Positions 7,067 through 61,340 of a stretch of 64,000 bases of DNA are shown piece by piece (the first letter of the stretch is position 1; each line of letters begins with the position of its first letter). Source of the DNA: a virus. The notes beneath the pieces were generated by a model. The model did not search any database. It saw only the letters and a program-made list of their open reading frames with translations, and was not told the origin of the DNA. Made by a program: the position numbers and the translations under genes. The DNA is taken from positions 64,001 to 128,000 of IMG/VR virus record IMGVR_UViG_3300032236_001530; one strand, given 5' to 3'.

Positions 7067-7497
7067 TACTTTTATTTATACTTCTATCTAGTAATTTATT
7101 TGCGCAAACTCAAATAGATGACGTTGGAGATGGTTGGAAATTAAAAGTAGACTCAGCTATCAATTTGATAAAAAAGACCAGCCCTGAGCATTATAAACAG
7201 GTTTCTGAGTATTGTAAACATGTTAGTTACTGGATGGGTGGATTTTCAACAACTCAAGATTCTGATATCGTTTTGATATCAACAAAAGATATGAAAATAG
7301 GCTCAGTTAATAACATAGCTTGTATATTAGTTCATGAGTCTCATCACTTGTATATTAAGAGTAAACATATAATACTAACCCCTAAAAAAGAAGAATTGGA
7401 ATGTTATATGTATGAATATGAGTTCATAAAGAAAGTAAACAACCCTGAAAACTGGCTGATTACACACATTATAAAAAATATTATTAATAATAAATAA
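7045..7497 (+). CDS. Secreted zincin-like metallopeptidase
   Basis: Signal peptide, LVHESHH (HExxH) and downstream EE. Confidence 0.55.
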   Translation: MYIKNALILLFILLSSNLFAQTQIDDVGDGWKLKVDSAINLIKKTSPEHYKQVSEYCKHVSYWMGGFSTTQDSDIVLISTKDMKIGSVNNIACILVHESHHLYIKSKHIILTPKKEELECYMYEYEFIKKVNNPENWLITHIIKNIINNK

Positions 7498-7526
7498 AAA
7501 ACCCACCAATTGGTGGGTTTCTTTTT
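7496..7526. terminator. Bidirectional intrinsic terminator
   Basis: A-tract, acccaccaattggtgggt palindrome, T-tract, between convergent genes. Confidence 0.85.
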
Positions 7527-7893
7527 ACTTAATACTCTCAAGTATATTCTTAATCTCTTCCAAGTGATACTTGTTACTTTTAACACTTTTCATTTTCTTT
7601 TCTAAGAAAAGGTTATTACTGATAACACACTTAGCATTGTTGTTATAATATTTGATATAAGAATCAATGTCAATTTTGCTAAGTTTGTAGTTAGAACTTC
7701 CTATCTTTTCAAGTTGGAAAAAGTCCTCGTTTATTTTAATTACTTTGAAATAAGTGAATTCATTGTAGTCATATTCGTGATAACTACCTTCAGCATTCCA
7801 CTTAAAAGTTGCCTTTGGTTTCACAAAAGTGTGTTGAGATGTTTTAGTTAAATAATTAACGATTTCTTGTTTGATTTGTTCTGCGTTTTTCAT
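7525..7893 (-). CDS. Hypothetical protein; last gene of the TAG-gated operon
   Basis: 122-aa ORF starting 4 nt after the HD gene stop. Confidence 0.6.
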   Translation of the reverse strand: MKNAEQIKQEIVNYLTKTSQHTFVKPKATFKWNAEGSYHEYDYNEFTYFKVIKINEDFFQLEKIGSSNYKLSKIDIDSYIKYYNNNAKCVISNNLFLEKKMKSVKSNKYHLEEIKNILESIK

Positions 7894-7897
7894 AATA

Positions 7898-8485
7898 TTA
7901 ATTTTTATTTTTTAATTGATTTATAATTTGTTTACCTCTTTGGTTAATACATTTCCATTTAATCTTGAAAGAGGTTGAATCAAGACCACCGAACATTTGA
8001 GCATTTGAATGTAACTCGGCTAACCCCGTTAACAATAAGGTTAAGGCATAAGGATTCTGACAGAATTGATTAACACCATCAGATTTCAATAAATGAATAT
8101 CCATGTCGTGTAGGATCAATTCAGCAGCAACTGAATTATTAAATACTTGGTTAAATACTTTATAAGATACTTCCGCATGATTTGGGAAATGTCTTTTACC
8201 ATCTGCGTCAATTTCTAAGCAGAATGGTTTACCACAATCGTGATAAATTGTGTATAGTTCTAATGTTTCATCATCTGGTAAAGACGATAAAAGAAGGTCT
8301 TTATTTTCTAAGACCCAATCTGGTAAATTCCATTCATATTGTAATGGTGTACCATTTCTTAAATGATTAATAAGGTCAAATAAGTAGTTCTTAACTGAAG
8401 TACCGTGTTCTAAAACAGATTGACCTTTGGTCTGTTCGCATTCAGACATTCTCTGAATTAATTCTTGTTTTGTAATCTACAACAT
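7898..8485 (-). CDS. HD-domain phosphohydrolase with an in-frame TAG at codon 3 (ML*ITKQELIQRMSECEQ...)
   Basis: H...HDCGK...HF.NH...H motifs. ATG at 8485-8483 lies 4 nt after the upstream stop and is in frame with the track ORF at 8449; TAG at 8479-8477. Confidence 0.75.
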
Positions 8486-8489
8486 AGTT

Positions 8490-9182
8490 TTATTTTTTAA
8501 TTTTTGTTTTTAATTCTTTACATAAATGTGGATGTACCCACTTTTCATTTTGAATATTTACTTCTTCGGCTTTGCCTTCTTCAAGTAAATTATTAAATAA
8601 TTGATATCTATCATGATGTCTTATTCCAGTAGTTTGATCTTTTATTGACTTAATATTACCATCTTCCATCTGAATAAACAAAGTTCCTTTTTTGTACTTA
8701 AAAGTTGATTTTGTTCTTTCATAATAAATTTCACAATCATCTTTTACTTTCCAAGCTTTGATTTCATAAACTTTTGGATCTTTTGGTTTACCAGTTAGCA
8801 ACTGATCAATTTTATACTCTCTATATTGAGGTTCTGTCATCTTGTATAAAGGTGCTATTCTAAATTCATAGCCATCTCTATGACTTGGGTAGATTTTAGT
8901 AGCTGCATCTAAAGCAGCACTTCTACTAACATAGATTCTATGATTCCAATAAGTAGACCAAGAATACCACTCACCTCGTGTATCTTTATATCTAAATTCT
9001 AATGTCCAACCATATACTTGAACATCATTGGCTACAGATTGTACTTTGAGTATTTGACTATCAGCAATAGCGTATTCTTTACCATTTATAGTGTATCTCA
9101 TTATATCACTATTATAATGGTCTTTAGGTTTTTCAACTTTTGTTGTTTGTTTTTTCTTAAAAATATTAAATAACTTTTTCAT
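8490..9182 (-). CDS. Hypothetical protein (internal REYKIDQLL motif)
   Basis: 230-aa ORF overlapping the end of the Pth2 gene by 17 nt. Confidence 0.65.
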   Translation of the reverse strand: MKKLFNIFKKKQTTKVEKPKDHYNSDIMRYTINGKEYAIADSQILKVQSVANDVQVYGWTLEFRYKDTRGEWYSWSTYWNHRIYVSRSAALDAATKIYPSHRDGYEFRIAPLYKMTEPQYREYKIDQLLTGKPKDPKVYEIKAWKVKDDCEIYYERTKSTFKYKKGTLFIQMEDGNIKSIKDQTTGIRHHDRYQLFNNLLEEGKAEEVNIQNEKWVHPHLCKELKTKIKK

Positions 9183-9528
9183 TTTGATTTGTTTTATTTT
9201 TTAGAGCTAAAGGTAAATGTGATAAGCTCTTACGAATTTGTGGAGTACCATAAAGACACACTGAAGTAAACTCATCTACATCAGGTTCAAAGAACATAAC
9301 AGCGTCTGTTAGTTCTTTATACTTATGATAAAGTTTTTGTAATTCAAATTCATTTTTAACTGATAAACAGATAATAGAATTTGATTCATCTTTCCACTTG
9401 GAAAAAGTTTTTGAGAATTCAAAAGCAAAGTCAGCAATTGAATGGGTTGATTGTACTACTTGGTAACCATCTGAGATATCACTTCTTGTGATAACAATTA
9501 ATTTTGGTTCTGTAATCTAATTTTTCAT
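9166..9528 (-). CDS. Pth2-like peptidyl-tRNA hydrolase with an in-frame TAG at codon 4; absent from the ORF track
   Basis: Manual translation: MKN*ITEPKLIVITRSDISDGYQVVQSTHSIADFAFEFSKTFSKWKDESNSIICLSVKNEFELQKLYHKYKELTDAVMFFEPDVDEFTSVCLYGTPQIRKSLSHLPLALKNKTNQNEKVI. It carries PTH2-family hallmarks (KL.+..R.D, Q..H, W, +.L.V..E.EL, F.EPD...T.+, L..LPL). Confidence 0.8.
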
Positions 9529-9552
9529 AATATATTTTTTTGTTTTTTGTTT

Positions 9553-9637
9553 AAAATAAAAATCCTCCATAATAAGTTCTAACCGAGTGCTCGCTCTCAT
9601 CAGCATTAGCTGGTTGGTTAGATTCCTATTAAGGAGG
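9553..9637 (-). promoter_or_regulatory. Attenuator-like RNA structure overlapping the 3' end of the leader peptide
   Basis: CCTCC-T-TAATAGG-AA-TCTAACC pairs with GGTTAGA-A-CTTATTA-T-GGAGG (19 bp), encloses two small hairpins, and is followed by ATTTTTATTTT. Confidence 0.7.
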
Positions 9638-9673
9638 TCTTTCTAAAAATTTATATGTGCTAATCTACATCAT
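9629..9673 (-). CDS. Putative leader peptide MM*ISTYKFLERPP (TAG at codon 3, ends TAA TAG)
   Basis: ATG ATG TAG ATT AGC ACA TAT AAA TTT TTA GAA AGA CCT CCT TAA; first ATG downstream of the promoter. Confidence 0.65.
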
Positions 9674-9693
9674 TGTCTTGAATTATTATACTA

Positions 9694-9725
9694 CAAATAT
9701 ATATCAAAAGTTTTGTTCTTCCAAA
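9694..9725 (-). promoter_or_regulatory. Bacteroidota housekeeping-sigma promoter (-33/-7)
   Basis: TTTG-N20-TATATTTG, matching the TTTG-N19-21-TAnnTTTG consensus. Confidence 0.75.
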
Positions 9726-9731
9726 TATTTT

Positions 9732-9950
9732 TTAAACTAAATCTATAATTAAACTTCCAGGATTAAAATATTTCTCATTTGATTTGAATCCATATAGTTT
9801 ACAAGCATCGGTGACTATATTTTTCATTCTATCACTCATACCCGTTACAACTTCAACTTGTTGGATATTTTTTTGCATCGATTCCCAAAAGAAAACATCC
9901 AGCTTTCTTTCGACATCTTCGTGTTTTATTCCGTGTAAATCAAGTTTCAT
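9732..9950 (-). CDS. Stand-alone Smr-domain protein
   Basis: LDLHG start and V+TG motif; 72 aa. Confidence 0.75.
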   Translation of the reverse strand: MKLDLHGIKHEDVERKLDVFFWESMQKNIQQVEVVTGMSDRMKNIVTDACKLYGFKSNEKYFNPGSLIIDLV

Positions 9951-9951
9951 T

Positions 9952-10488
9952 TTATTTAACTTTAATTAAAGACTTTAGCTTAGTTGGTTTGAAAAATTTA
10001 ACAACTGAAAATCCCCAGAAACAAGGCGAAAAATGTGATGGTGCATTAACATCTGAATTAAAACTACTATAATAGTAATTACCAAAAAACACATTCATGT
10101 GTATCTTTTCAGTAACTTCATATTCAACACCAGAAGTCCATTCCAACATTAAACTAGGTATTGGACCAAATACATAACCAACACCTGGTGTTATTGTATT
10201 TGTAAATTTACCAACTTGAAATACATTTAAGTTAGGTCTAACCTCTAAATAAATATCATCAAGTGATTTATTAGCACAATTTGTTTTACCCAATGCAAGA
10301 CCAAGCGTAAAAACATCTTGGAATTGTCTACCAACTTCAATAGTTGGACTTAATTTTGTTCTAAATGAACCTAATTCATTTGTCAAACAAGGCGAAAATG
10401 AAACATATGTTTGAGCAGCAGCTTCGAGATTCTGAGCCTTAGATGTGTAGCTTACTAAAAGTAATAAAACAAGTATTAATTTTTTCAT
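9952..10488 (-). CDS. Putative outer-membrane beta-barrel protein
   Basis: Signal peptide and amphipathic strands (TPGVGYVF, WTSGVEY). Confidence 0.5.
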   Translation of the reverse strand: MKKLILVLLLLVSYTSKAQNLEAAAQTYVSFSPCLTNELGSFRTKLSPTIEVGRQFQDVFTLGLALGKTNCANKSLDDIYLEVRPNLNVFQVGKFTNTITPGVGYVFGPIPSLMLEWTSGVEYEVTEKIHMNVFFGNYYYSSFNSDVNAPSHFSPCFWGFSVVKFFKPTKLKSLIKVK

Positions 10489-10503
10489 GTTTATGATTAT
10501 TTT

Positions 10504-60394: not shown

Positions 60395-60898
60395 TTATAA
60401 ATCTTTATTTTTTTCACTTTCTAATTCACCTACAACATAATCTAAAAATGAATCTAATTCATATTCCAGGCCATTACAAAACTCAAACACATCATATGAT
60501 TCTTCATTTGGTTTTTTAGACACTGAATAAAAATCTGGTGATATTTGATTACTATTAAAAACAACTATTCTACCCTCTAATCTACCTTCAATTCTTTTAC
60601 CACTTGGGAATACTAAGTCTGGTACATACAAAGTGCCTATATAATGCACCTCATCACCATAATCTTCTGTTTCGGTGTGTTCAAATTTGAAATATCCATT
60701 ATCATCTTCAAATACTCTCTCACTTTCATCAACAATCATCTTATTATGAACTTCTTCTTGATTTCCTGACTTATGCGCATTTAGAAAATCTCTTTCATCA
60801 TCTCGCAATGAAGACATTCCATATTTAGATATTTTATCCAATATGTCATCTACTCTTTGTTGAGCTGTATATCCTTCATATCTCATTAGATGTTTCAT
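60395..60898 (-). CDS. Hypothetical protein with an MKHLMRYE leader
   Basis: VD.ILDKISKYG..SL...ER.FL helical motif. Confidence 0.6.
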   Translation of the reverse strand: MKHLMRYEGYTAQQRVDDILDKISKYGMSSLRDDERDFLNAHKSGNQEEVHNKMIVDESERVFEDDNGYFKFEHTETEDYGDEVHYIGTLYVPDLVFPSGKRIEGRLEGRIVVFNSNQISPDFYSVSKKPNEESYDVFEFCNGLEYELDSFLDYVVGELESEKNKDL

Positions 60899-60926
60899 AA
60901 TAATCATTGATGTATATATTCAATAA

Positions 60927-61340
60927 TCAATCATCACTTTTTCTAACCTCAATTTTCCAAGCTCCTCCTGATTTTACAACTCTATTGTCATTATATTCTG
61001 TTAATTGTAAATATGGTGCTGTCGGTTTGTAATTATTTATAACTTTCTCTCTAATAGCTTGATATAATATGTCTATGCCAATTCCATCAGCTTGGTAAAT
61101 ACATATGTAATTATTATCTATATCTTCCCAGTCAAAATCAGAATATTCTGTGTTATTGATAACTGATTTTATTTTATTATCTCTATTATATTTTTGTACT
61201 TCTTTTATCCAACTATCCATAAAACAATAAATGAACCCATCGGATCCATCTTTACTATGTTTAATTAAAATATCAAAGTCAACACCGTCGTAAAAACGAA
61301 TGCTTACTCCTTTTTGTTCTACTTCCTCAATCAAGGTCAT
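60927..61340 (-). CDS. Hypothetical protein
   Basis: Internal RDNKIKSVI; start approximate. Confidence 0.5.
   Translation of the reverse strand: MTLIEEVEQKGVSIRFYDGVDFDILIKHSKDGSDGFIYCFMDSWIKEVQKYNRDNKIKSVINNTEYSDFDWEDIDNNYICIYQADGIGIDILYQAIREKVINNYKPTAPYLQLTEYNDNRVVKSGGAWKIEVRKSDD

What the first reader, a model, noticed from the sequence alone, without database searches (positions are those of the whole stretch)
9166..9528. Unannotated Pth2-type peptidyl-tRNA hydrolase with no usable downstream ATG
Seen: the 120-codon frame is missing from the ORF track because the only ATG after the TAG lies about two thirds of the way in (VMFFEPD), past the Q..H motif. A full enzyme therefore requires readthrough or a non-AUG start, yet the coding motifs look intact. 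Established: Pth2 is the archaeal/eukaryotic-type hydrolase, distinct from bacterial Pth1. Inference: feedback logic, since the MKN-stop minigene could itself generate Pth substrate.
Basis: partly seen in the sequence, partly recalled or inferred. Interest (0 to 1): 0.75.

Follow-up and report, generated by a model that had tools for sequence, protein, structure and literature searches.

The report
Amber-gated phage Pth2-like hydrolase gene
An intact phage gene for a peptidyl-tRNA-hydrolase-like enzyme keeps a UAG stop as its fourth codon, as do more than 100 relatives that often sit beside a UAG-reading tRNA gene, so the enzyme is probably made only while that stop is being read through.

Summary
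Window 9166-9528 (minus strand) reads ATG AAA AAT TAG and then 116 open codons, with no ATG/GTG/TTG before the conserved core.

It is not a pseudogene. dN/dS is 0.10-0.18, the predicted fold is Pth2, and all about 108 homologous loci (78 distinct coding sequences) keep ATG, 0-7 codons, then TAG. The stop is never TAA or TGA.

The genomes are not recoded: TAG ends 8-14% of ordinary genes.

The same early TAG sits in the HD-domain gene two genes downstream (44 of 44 distinct full-length homologues). It also sits in a short upstream leader, M-M-TAG-I...Pro-Pro-stop, whose end overlaps a terminator hairpin.

tRNA(CUA) genes lie within 1.5 kb upstream in 33 of 91 distinct loci, against about 1 expected. 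The cultured Tenacibaculum phage pT24 has one too.

Best reading: expression gated by amber suppression, plus a leader that probably senses read-through. This 155-kb record itself shows no tRNA(CUA).

This scan has already noted the same design on this genome and in several other genomes. I found no published description.

The parts
9166..9528 (-). Pth2-like coding frame: ATG 9528-9526, two sense codons, in-frame TAG 9519-9517, 116 sense codons, TAA 9168-9166.
   Evidence: Translation. Pfam PTH2 scores 22.3 bits. The profile search of solved structures puts Pth2 on top. The AF2 model has pLDDT 83.6, and its 12 best Foldseek hits are all Pth2. dN/dS is 0.10-0.18.
9517..9519 (-). Conserved amber codon (codon 4), followed by ATT ACA. 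It lies in the disordered N-terminal tail, before strand beta-1.
   Evidence: The stop is TAG in every homologous locus and never TAA or TGA. The next base is always a purine. Residues 1-3 of the model have pLDDT under 50, and strand 1 starts at residue 10.
9629..9673 (-). Leader ORF: ATG ATG TAG ATT, then 10 more codons ending CCT CCT, then TAA. The peptide is M-M-amber-ISTYKFLERPP-stop.
   Evidence: There are 19 distinct leader peptides in relatives. All have a TAG at codon 2-3 and all end Pro-Pro-stop, in frame across three length classes.
9553..9637 (-). Long branched hairpin, CCUCC...GGAGG, followed by AUUUUUAUUUU (terminator-like). Its 5' arm is the Pro-Pro-stop of the leader. It ends about 25 nt before the Pth2 ATG.
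   Evidence: The fold has z = -4.2. An equivalent hairpin plus U-run is present in all 21 distinct relatives folded, with quite different inner sequences.
9685..9724 (-). Promoter-like stretch upstream of the leader: TATATTTG (a Bacteroidota-type TAnnTTTG -7 motif), then TAGTATAAT.
   Evidence: Read from the sequence. A weak sigma-70-type hit lies at 9724-9696. The TAnnTTTG-like motif recurs upstream in relatives and in phage pT24. Function is inferred only.
8490..9182 (-). 230-aa ORF of unknown family between the Pth2-like and HD genes. Its start overlaps the end of the Pth2 frame by 17 nt. It has no in-frame TAG.
   Evidence: No Pfam, PHROG or NCBIfam hit. It appears to be present in relatives where the HD TAG lies about 1030-1060 nt after the Pth2 TAG and absent where the distance is about 340-390 nt; this is inferred from spacing.
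7898..8485 (-). HD-domain gene with the same device: ATG TTG TAG ATT ACA (TAG at 8479-8477), then 192 sense codons.
   Evidence: phrog_14850 matches at E 1e-62. The early TAG is kept in 44 of 44 distinct full-length homologue contexts. In the AF2 model (pLDDT 96.7), the residues between the TAG and the internal Met form helix 3-12 at pLDDT 98. The best structural match is the C-terminal half of a CC-adding tRNA nucleotidyltransferase, Z 14.8.
7525..7893 (-). 122-aa ORF of unknown family, the last gene of the shared module. A strong terminator-like hairpin follows at 7523-7496.
   Evidence: It is shared with genome G001 at 66% identity. The terminator scan is.
9732..9950 (-). 72-aa Smr-domain gene directly upstream of the leader promoter.
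   Evidence: Pfam Smr scores 28 bits against a cut-off of 25.7. The same gene end is seen upstream in L002.

Best explanation
The frame is a functional gene for a Pth2-fold hydrolase that probably acts on the 3' end of tRNA. Translation starts at the ATG (9528). A full-length protein is made only when the UAG at codon 4 is decoded as an amino acid, most likely by an amber-suppressor tRNA(CUA). Many relatives encode such a tRNA right next to this gene.

The UAG sits in a disordered N-terminal tail, so any inserted residue should be tolerated. It therefore acts as a switch, not as part of the protein's design.

The gene belongs to a conserved module: promoter, leader ORF, terminator hairpin, Pth2-like gene, an optional 230-aa gene, and an HD-domain gene. 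The leader and the HD gene carry the same 'ATG, 1-2 codons, UAG, AUU' device.

Inferred mechanism. A ribosome that terminates at the leader's UAG leaves the terminator free to form. A ribosome that reads through reaches Pro-Pro-stop, which lies on the 5' arm of the terminator, and lets transcription continue. The two enzyme genes then need read-through a second time.

Shown: the conservation, the selection, the fold, the linkage to tRNA(CUA) genes, and the standard code of the genomes.

Inferred: that the tRNA is made, charged and used; the attenuation step; and the enzyme's substrate.
For: (1) Invariant TAG. All 33 viral-contig loci and about 75 metagenome loci have ATG, 0-7 codons, then TAG, and never TAA or TGA. 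TAA ends about 78-80% of ordinary genes in these genomes.

(2) Purifying selection. The median dN/dS is 0.18 over 662 pairs, and 0.10-0.14 for the window against close relatives. dS is 0.4-1.4, so the TAG has outlasted saturation of silent sites.

(3) No global recoding. In G000, 212 table-11 ORFs cover 92% and 16 end in TAG. G001 and G002 have 37 of 425 and 65 of 470 ORFs ending in TAG. Coverage hardly changes if TAG is read as sense.

(4) Linkage to tRNA(CUA). Standard aragorn tRNA(CUA) among 91 tRNAs in 689 kb of loci, all on the gene's strand. A CUA-loop plus T-loop pattern lies within 1.5 kb upstream in 33 of 91 distinct loci. It occurs in 0 of 91 on the opposite strand, and the background is 0.003-0.012 per strand-kb. 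An atypical tRNA(CUA) family shows compensatory changes in 14 of 16 pairs. Near-complete G001, complete G002 and cultured phage pT24 each have one.

(5) The same device occurs in the HD gene. It is kept in 44 of 44 distinct full-length contexts. Two homologues have no canonical start for 71 and 110 codons after the TAG. The residues after the TAG are a confident helix.

(6) The same device occurs in the leader. There are 19 distinct peptides, always in frame to Pro-Pro-stop on the terminator arm.

(7) The Pth2-like and HD domains are fused behind a single amber codon in L031, L194, L197 and pT24.

(8) The base after TAG is always a purine. From memory, this is the context that favours amber suppression in E. 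coli.
Against: The 155-kb record that holds the window has no tRNA(CUA). This holds for aragorn, for Rfam tRNA and for my model of the atypical family. The record is linear and estimated 83% complete, so the tRNA may lie in the missing part, but that is not shown.

About a quarter of the loci (23 of 91) show neither a nearby tRNA(CUA) nor the leader.

TAG also ends ordinary phage genes, so a strong suppressor would extend them.

ATT follows the TAG in about 88% of cases. A purine-context effect alone does not explain that, and it leaves some room for re-initiation.

Nothing is experimental. Expression, charging and identity of the tRNA, the inserted residue, terminator function and enzyme activity are all unknown.

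The Lys of the Pth2 'GK..AQ..H' motif is Tyr in this family, so classical Pth activity is not assured.
Confidence: 0.7

Rival explanations
1. Mini-ORF plus re-initiation. The ribosome translates ATG AAA AAT, terminates at UAG, and the same ribosome restarts at the adjacent AUU (a near-cognate start). The protein then begins at Ile5 and no suppressor is needed.
For: ATT (or ATA) follows the TAG in about 88% of Pth2 homologues, 42 of 44 HD homologues and all leaders. No tRNA(CUA) is visible in this genome.
Against: Re-initiation does not require TAG, yet TAA and TGA never occur in AT-rich genomes that prefer TAA. The codon after TAG is GTA, GTT, AAC or GAA in several lineages, and none of these is a near-cognate start. 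This model does not explain the linkage to tRNA(CUA) genes. It also does not explain why the leader's reading frame from the TAG to Pro-Pro-stop is kept.
Confidence: 0.1
2. Read-through without a dedicated suppressor. The early UAG is a sensor of release-factor-1 activity. When RF1 is limiting or inhibited during infection, near-cognate host tRNAs read UAG and the module switches on. This would be analogous to the in-frame UGA of prfB.
For: UAG is the only stop read by RF1 alone, which would explain why the stop is always TAG. This genome shows no tRNA(CUA). 23 of 91 loci show neither a tRNA nor a leader nearby.
Against: Most loci are short fragments, so absence of a tRNA is weak evidence.
Confidence: 0.1
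3. The ATG AAA AAT TAG minigene produces short peptidyl-tRNA by drop-off, like the lambda bar minigenes. This substrate load somehow controls synthesis of the hydrolase.
For: Very short ORFs are known to favour peptidyl-tRNA drop-off (established for the lambda bar minigenes; from memory). Lys or Asn codons are common before the TAG.
Against: The pre-TAG peptide ranges from 1 to 8 residues, including ATG TAG with no sense codon between. The same device precedes an HD-domain gene and sits inside a leader ORF. The stop is always TAG. The idea offers no route to translating the downstream frame.
Confidence: 0.04
4. The gene is a decaying pseudogene, or the TAG is a sequencing error.
For: A nonsense codon at position 4 and no downstream start. 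A table-11 gene caller misses the gene.
Against: The same TAG is present in 78 distinct coding sequences from independent samples. dN/dS is 0.10-0.18. No other stops or frameshifts occur.
Confidence: 0.01
5. The phage uses genetic code 15 throughout (TAG read as Gln), and this is simply one recoded gene.
For: Public gene callers translated the homologues with TAG read as Q. The nearest GenBank relatives are huge uncultured phages.
Against: In G000, G001 and G002, table 11 already covers 90-93% of the DNA. TAG ends 8-14% of ORFs. Reading TAG as sense gains almost nothing. In each genome this gene was the only long frame found that has an ATG, an early TAG and no start codon within the next 15 codons; the HD gene has the same early TAG but also an ATG 9-10 codons later.
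Confidence: 0.02

Closest known systems
Stop-codon-recoded phages with phage suppressor tRNAs, and the 'code change module' placed before lysis genes (bioRxiv 10.1101/2021.08.26.457843)
   Same: A phage-encoded tRNA(CUA), together with in-frame TAGs, makes certain genes translatable only once suppression is active. That paper proposes this as a post-transcriptional timer.
   Different: Here the genomes keep the standard code and use TAG as a normal stop. Only one small module carries TAGs: one per ORF, always within the first 2-9 codons and in a fixed 'TAG ATT' context. The gated genes are tRNA-acting enzymes, not lysis or structural genes. That paper does not mention peptidyl-tRNA hydrolase (0 occurrences).
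prfB (release factor 2) autoregulation through an in-frame UGA
   Same: A conserved early in-frame stop codon makes the output depend on how efficiently that stop is recognised.
   Different: prfB escapes by a +1 frameshift and senses its own product. Here the frame is unchanged, the stop is UAG, and the likely reader is a suppressor tRNA. No feedback onto termination has been shown.
Leader-peptide transcription attenuators and Pro-stop or RAPP-type arrest peptides (trp, tnaC, SecM/ApdA class)
   Same: A short ORF lies just behind a promoter and its 3' end overlaps a terminator hairpin. It ends in Pro-Pro-stop, a sequence class known to slow termination.
   Different: The variable being sensed would be read-through of a UAG at leader codon 3, not the supply of an amino acid or ligand. 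I found no alternative anti-terminator hairpin, so the ribosome itself would have to mask the stem. Arrest was not tested.
Archaeal and eukaryotic Pth2 (PF01981; PDB 2ZV3, 3ERJ, 1WN2, 1XTY, 1Q7S)
   Same: Same fold (Foldseek probability 1.0, TM 0.55-0.65). The N-terminal motif R-x-D-[LI]...G-x...Q-x-x-H aligns.
   Different: Sequence identity is only 15-26%. The single-sequence Pfam score is below the curated cut-off. The Lys of 'GK' is an invariant Tyr in this family. The gene is phage-borne, is partnered with or fused to an HD domain, and is amber-gated.
Lambda bar minigenes (AUG-AUA-stop), toxic when Pth is limiting
   Same: A 2-3 codon ORF connected by theme to peptidyl-tRNA hydrolase.
   Different: The bar minigenes are stand-alone and are not in frame with a downstream gene. 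Here the short ORF is in frame, varies in length and always ends in TAG.

Membership tests
Pth2 peptidyl-tRNA hydrolase (Pfam PF01981 / TIGR00283) | Significant match to the family profile | tested here: inconclusive
   The window protein scores 22.3 bits against a cut-off of 23 (E 1.6e-4). TIGR00283 gives 22.8 bits against a cut-off of 82. Many homologues carry a precomputed PF01981 hit. A 47-sequence profile finds Pth2 entries as the five best solved-structure hits (best E 3.9e-5).
Pth2 peptidyl-tRNA hydrolase (Pfam PF01981 / TIGR00283) | Pth2 alpha/beta fold | tested here: met
   The AF2 model has pLDDT 83.6 and pTM 0.76. The 12 best Foldseek PDB hits are all Pth2 structures, with probability 0.95-1.0 and TM 0.5-0.65.
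Pth2 peptidyl-tRNA hydrolase (Pfam PF01981 / TIGR00283) | Catalytic residues conserved | tested here: inconclusive
   In the alignments to 24BT and 2ZV3, the Gln and His of '..Q..H' are kept, but the Lys of 'GK' is Tyr, which is invariant in the family. HMMER did not align the C-terminal Asp/Thr region. I could not retrieve the mutagenesis literature.
Pth2 peptidyl-tRNA hydrolase (Pfam PF01981 / TIGR00283) | Hydrolyses N-blocked aminoacyl-tRNA or peptidyl-tRNA | not testable with these tools
   This needs an enzyme assay or complementation of a pth(ts) strain.
Genome-wide TAG-recoded phage (code 15) | Many genes interrupted by in-frame TAG, low coding density under table 11, and TAG not used as a terminator | tested here: not met
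   Table 11 covers 92% of G000, and 16 of 212 ORFs end in TAG. Reading TAG as sense does not raise coverage. The same holds for G001 and G002.
Suppressor-tRNA-gated gene (phage tRNA(CUA) plus in-frame TAG) | Conserved in-frame TAG in an otherwise selected gene | tested here: met
Suppressor-tRNA-gated gene (phage tRNA(CUA) plus in-frame TAG) | A tRNA with anticodon CUA encoded by the same genome | tested here: not met
   None in the 155-kb record, which is incomplete (83%). The feature is met in relatives: G001, G002, pT24 and 33 of 91 loci.
Leader-peptide transcription attenuator | Promoter, short translated ORF and intrinsic terminator, with the ORF's end overlapping the terminator stem, conserved among relatives | tested here: met
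   There are 19 distinct leaders, with the frame kept to Pro-Pro-stop on the 5' arm, and a hairpin plus U-run in 21 of 21 folded. This is met by sequence architecture only; neither translation of the leader nor terminator function was tested.
Leader-peptide transcription attenuator | Termination efficiency responds to the position of the ribosome on the leader | not testable with these tools
   This needs Term-seq or reporter assays.
Lambda bar-type minigene | Stand-alone 2-3 codon ORF whose effect does not depend on which stop codon is used or on the frame of a downstream gene | tested here: not met
   The ORF is always TAG-terminated, always in frame with the downstream ORF, and has 0-7 codons before the stop.

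The most novel reading that the evidence does not exclude
The module is a self-contained controller of stop-codon read-through in standard-code phages. In this reading, a leader-peptide attenuator measures how well UAG is being suppressed. It then switches on two enzymes that act on the acceptor end of tRNA: a Pth2-like ester hydrolase and an HD protein resembling the tRNA-binding half of a CC-adding enzyme. These enzymes either keep the suppressor tRNA working (positive feedback, a bistable code switch) or limit it (a homeostat). Such a circuit could be the stepping stone from the standard code to TAG recoding in phages.
Probability: 0.2. Interest if true: 0.9.

Novelty: new variant of a known kind. 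Interest (0 to 1): 0.75.

Why it matters
Phage suppressor tRNAs in standard-code phages have had no known targets. Here they gain a specific, conserved target: one small module in which each reading frame carries one deliberately kept UAG.

If the reading holds, it is a natural translational switch. It would also be a leader-peptide attenuator whose sensed variable is stop-codon read-through. That bears on how phages begin to change the genetic code of an infected cell.

It also corrects annotation. Table-11 callers miss or truncate the gene. RefSeq starts the pT24 homologue at an internal Met, which removes the first strand and the Q..H motif.

A cultured system exists for testing: Tenacibaculum phage pT24 has the tRNA(CUA), the amber codon and a Pth2-HD fusion.

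Tried and rejected
Rfam scan of 8500-10500 at E up to 1 gave only two chance snoRNA-like hits. By eye, the CUGAUGAG inside the hairpin looked hammerhead-like, but it lacks the rest of the core and Rfam did not support it.

aragorn on the window found no tRNA. Relaxed aragorn on the genome gave 87 mostly spurious calls, including one 'CUA' inside an ORF, which I disregarded.

I tested global TAG recoding and rejected it.

An exact-pattern scan of viral contigs for the leader found only G001, G029 and one coincidental coding match, L119. The wider leader family came from the loci themselves.

A synteny check showed that G000 and G001 share only 22 of 230 ORFs. The closest Pth2 relative therefore cannot stand in for the missing part of this genome.

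I tried to show that TAG-terminated G000 genes end where their homologues end. Only two could be compared, and both fit either reading.

A covariance model of the atypical tRNA(CUA) family found nothing in G000 beyond the known tRNAs.

I considered an initiator-type tRNA(CUA) starting at UAG and rejected it. An in-frame ATG is always kept upstream, and the tRNAs lack the G-C-rich anticodon stem of initiators.

Pyrrolysine: aragorn labels any CUA tRNA 'Pyl'. By eye these tRNAs have ordinary T-loops and no Pyl-like arms; I did not search for pyl genes.

The literature on Pth2 catalytic residues could not be retrieved.

The HD protein alone against PDB sequences and NCBIfam gave only non-significant hits. 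Structure comparison was needed.

I did not use complex prediction, the protein atlas or the representative search.
Full report
**What is there.** On the minus strand, window 9528-9166 reads ATG AAA AAT TAG ATT ACA GAA ..., followed by 116 sense codons and TAA. After the TAG, the first canonical start in frame is 73 codons on, beyond the conserved 'VQSTHS' motif. A table-11 ORF list therefore shows only a 43-aa stub.

**It is a real, selected gene with a Pth2 fold.**
- The single sequence scores 22.3 bits on Pfam PTH2, against a cut-off of 23.
- There are 251 homologues in the large protein collection, many with PF01981 precomputed.
- A 47-sequence profile finds Pth2 entries as the five best solved-structure hits (best E 3.9e-5).
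- An AlphaFold model (pLDDT 83.6) has Pth2 structures as its 12 best Foldseek hits: 2ZV3, 3ERJ, 1Q7S, 1WN2, 1XTY, 1RZW and 1RLK, with probability 0.95-1.0.
- Across 78 distinct coding sequences the median dN/dS is 0.18. For the window against close relatives it is 0.10-0.14, at dS 0.4-0.8.
- One caveat on function: the Lys of the canonical 'GK..AQ..H' motif is an invariant Tyr in this family. Classical Pth activity is therefore not assured.

**The TAG is conserved and gene-specific.** Two public homologues were on record as translating 'with TAG=Q', so I looked at the DNA of 31 viral-contig loci and 80 metagenome loci. Every locus where the start could be located has an in-frame ATG, 0-7 sense codons, then TAG. 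TAA and TGA never occur. The next codon is usually ATT, but it is also GTA, GTT, ATA, AAC or GAA. Its first base is always a purine. One locus has ATG TAG directly.

The genomes are not recoded. In the 155-kb record that holds the window (G000), 212 table-11 ORFs cover 92% of the DNA, and their stops are TAA 165, TGA 31 and TAG 16. In two relatives fetched whole, TAG ends 37 of 425 ORFs (G001, 385 kb) and 65 of 470 ORFs (G002, 373 kb, complete). Reading TAG as sense gains almost no coverage. In each of the three genomes this gene is the only long frame with an ATG, an early TAG and no nearby start.

In the model, residue 4 lies in a disordered tail before strand 1. Any inserted amino acid should therefore be tolerated.

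**tRNA(CUA) genes travel with the gene.**
- Standard aragorn on 113 loci (689 kb) tRNA(CUA) genes. This is the commonest anticodon among the 91 tRNAs found. All are on the gene's strand, and most lie 100-1200 nt upstream.
- A simple pattern (CUA loop plus T-loop) is found within 1.5 kb upstream in 33 of 91 distinct loci. It is found in none on the opposite strand. The background is 0.003-0.012 per strand-kb, which gives about 1 expected.
- Many of these tRNAs belong to an atypical family with an enlarged D region that Rfam misses. Aligned, 14 of its 16 predicted pairs show compensatory changes around an invariant UCUAA loop.
- Near-complete G001 has a canonical tRNA(CUA) far from the gene.
- Complete G002 has an atypical one 3.4 kb upstream.

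**Two more reading frames carry the same device.** Following a lead from an earlier first-reader note (e1-5784499), I confirmed that the HD-domain gene two genes downstream is preceded in frame by ATG TTG TAG ATT ACA (TAG at 8479-8477).
- The early TAG is kept in 44 of 44 distinct full-length homologue contexts.
- Two homologues have no canonical start for 71 and 110 codons after the TAG.
- The codons after the TAG show synonymous changes.
- In a pLDDT-96.7 model, these residues form a helix at pLDDT 98. They are therefore part of the protein.
- The HD protein's best structural match is the C-terminal half (residues 250-447) of a bacterial CC-adding tRNA nucleotidyltransferase, 3WFQ/3WFR, at Z 14.8, rmsd 2.7 A and 157 aligned residues. 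Ordinary HD phosphohydrolases score about 10. The identity of the entry comes from PMC4810234.
- In L031, L194, L197 and phage pT24, the Pth2-like and HD domains are fused behind a single amber codon.

**The leader and the terminator.** I saw these before reading the notes. A promoter-like stretch contains TATATTTG, which resembles the Bacteroidota TAnnTTTG motif. It is followed by ATG ATG TAG ATT ... CCT CCT TAA (9673-9629). The CCUCCUUAA of this ORF is the 5' arm of a long hairpin (z = -4.2). The hairpin ends in AUUUUUAUUUU, about 25 nt before the Pth2 ATG.

Relatives show 19 distinct leader peptides in three length classes. All have a TAG at codon 2-3 and all stay in frame to Pro-Pro-stop. 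All 21 distinct sequences fold into a hairpin plus U-run, with very different inner sequences. One lineage (L006/L007) breaks the frame. Keeping the frame beyond the TAG makes sense only if ribosomes sometimes read through it.

The inferred logic is as follows. Termination at the leader's UAG lets the terminator form. Read-through parks a slow-terminating ribosome on the terminator arm, so transcription continues.

**What remains open for this window.** G000 shows only a tRNA-Met and an odd tRNA-Glu-like gene (a second such gene was seen only at a relaxed threshold). It shows no tRNA(CUA) by aragorn, by Rfam tRNA or by my model of the atypical family. The record is linear and estimated 83% complete. 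It shares only 22 of 230 ORFs with G001, so I cannot say where a suppressor would lie.

**Rivals.**
- Re-initiation at AUU is helped by the 88% ATT after the TAG. It is hurt by the invariant TAG, the non-start codons in some lineages and the tRNA linkage.
- An RF1 sensor without a dedicated tRNA is possible.
- Pseudogene and whole-genome recoding are excluded.

**Comparison with what is known.** The nearest published concept is stop-codon recoding with phage suppressor tRNAs and the 'code change module' (bioRxiv 10.1101/2021.08.26.457843). That work concerns genomes with many recoded late genes and does not mention peptidyl-tRNA hydrolase. Full-text searches for Pth2 or peptidyl-tRNA hydrolase together with phage and suppressor tRNA found nothing relevant.

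In GenBank phages, the family occurs in the 460-735-kb uncultured phages and in cultured Tenacibaculum phage pT24. In pT24 a tRNA(CUA) lies 2.6 kb upstream. The gene starts ATG AAA TAG ATA. RefSeq annotates only a 273-aa 'hypothetical protein' from an internal Met.

**Earlier notes of this scan.** First-reader notes on this same genome (e1-5784499, e1-5784500) and follow-up reports on other genomes (for example e1-933198, e1-5391601 and e1-5804146) describe the same design. My analysis reaches the same reading from independent loci. It also adds the invariant early TAG of the HD gene across all full-length homologues, the Pth2-HD fusions, the dN/dS values and the fact that this particular record lacks a visible tRNA(CUA).

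**Verdict.** The most likely reading is an amber-suppression-gated Pth2-like gene inside a small read-through-sensing module. It is a new variant of suppressor-tRNA-dependent expression, I found no published description of it, and it can be tested in a cultured phage.

Noticed in passing
window 9732-9950 (-): A 72-aa Smr-domain gene (Pfam 28 bits) lies directly upstream of the leader. Smr nucleases act on stalled or collided ribosomes, so another translation-quality-control theme sits next to the module.
   Followed up: partly
G000:C1:60813-60887 (-), about 3.1 kb before the window start: A tRNA-Glu-like gene whose anticodon arm gives a 6-nt loop, UUUUCG (or an 8-nt loop on a shorter stem). 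A second such gene was seen at 60594-60667 only at a relaxed threshold. Neither has a CUA anticodon.
   Followed up: partly
L009:5762-5844, L017:5869-5951, L143:2866-2948 and 19 others (alignment A4): A family of atypical tRNA(CUA) genes with about 27 nt between the acceptor and anticodon stems (a '..GAA..TTAAA..' linker plus a hairpin). Rfam tRNA misses them at E 0.01, and aragorn misses them in part. Compensatory changes in 14 of 16 pairs support them.
   Followed up: yes
L209:2447-3403 (Tenacibaculum phage pT24, NC_049383.1 194083-195039): The RefSeq gene gp293 is annotated from an internal Met (273 aa, hypothetical protein). The full frame is a 316-aa Pth2-like/HD fusion with a TAG at codon 3, and a tRNA(CUA) lies at 191520-191593.
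   Followed up: yes
window 8490-9182 (-): A 230-aa ORF with no family hit appears to be an optional insert between the Pth2-like and HD genes. Judging by spacing, it is present where the two TAGs lie about 1030-1060 nt apart and absent where they lie about 340-390 nt apart. Its start overlaps the Pth2 stop by 17 nt.
   Followed up: partly
G002 about 116120 (-); L210:1576-1590 (pT24); G000 about 60448-61123: A short motif, (A)AGTTCTTT(G), follows tRNA(CUA) genes in G002 and pT24. It may be a processing or termination signal.
   Followed up: no
G001 373354 (-), 199634 (-), 380231 (+): Further small frames in the relative G001 start ATG, 0-1 codon, TAG ATT. One lies 3 kb from its tRNA(CUA) at 370132-370204. 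They may be extra amber-gated small genes.
   Followed up: no
window 7496-7523: A strong bidirectional terminator-like hairpin (12-bp stem, T-runs on both strands) closes the module after the 122-aa ORF.
   Followed up: no
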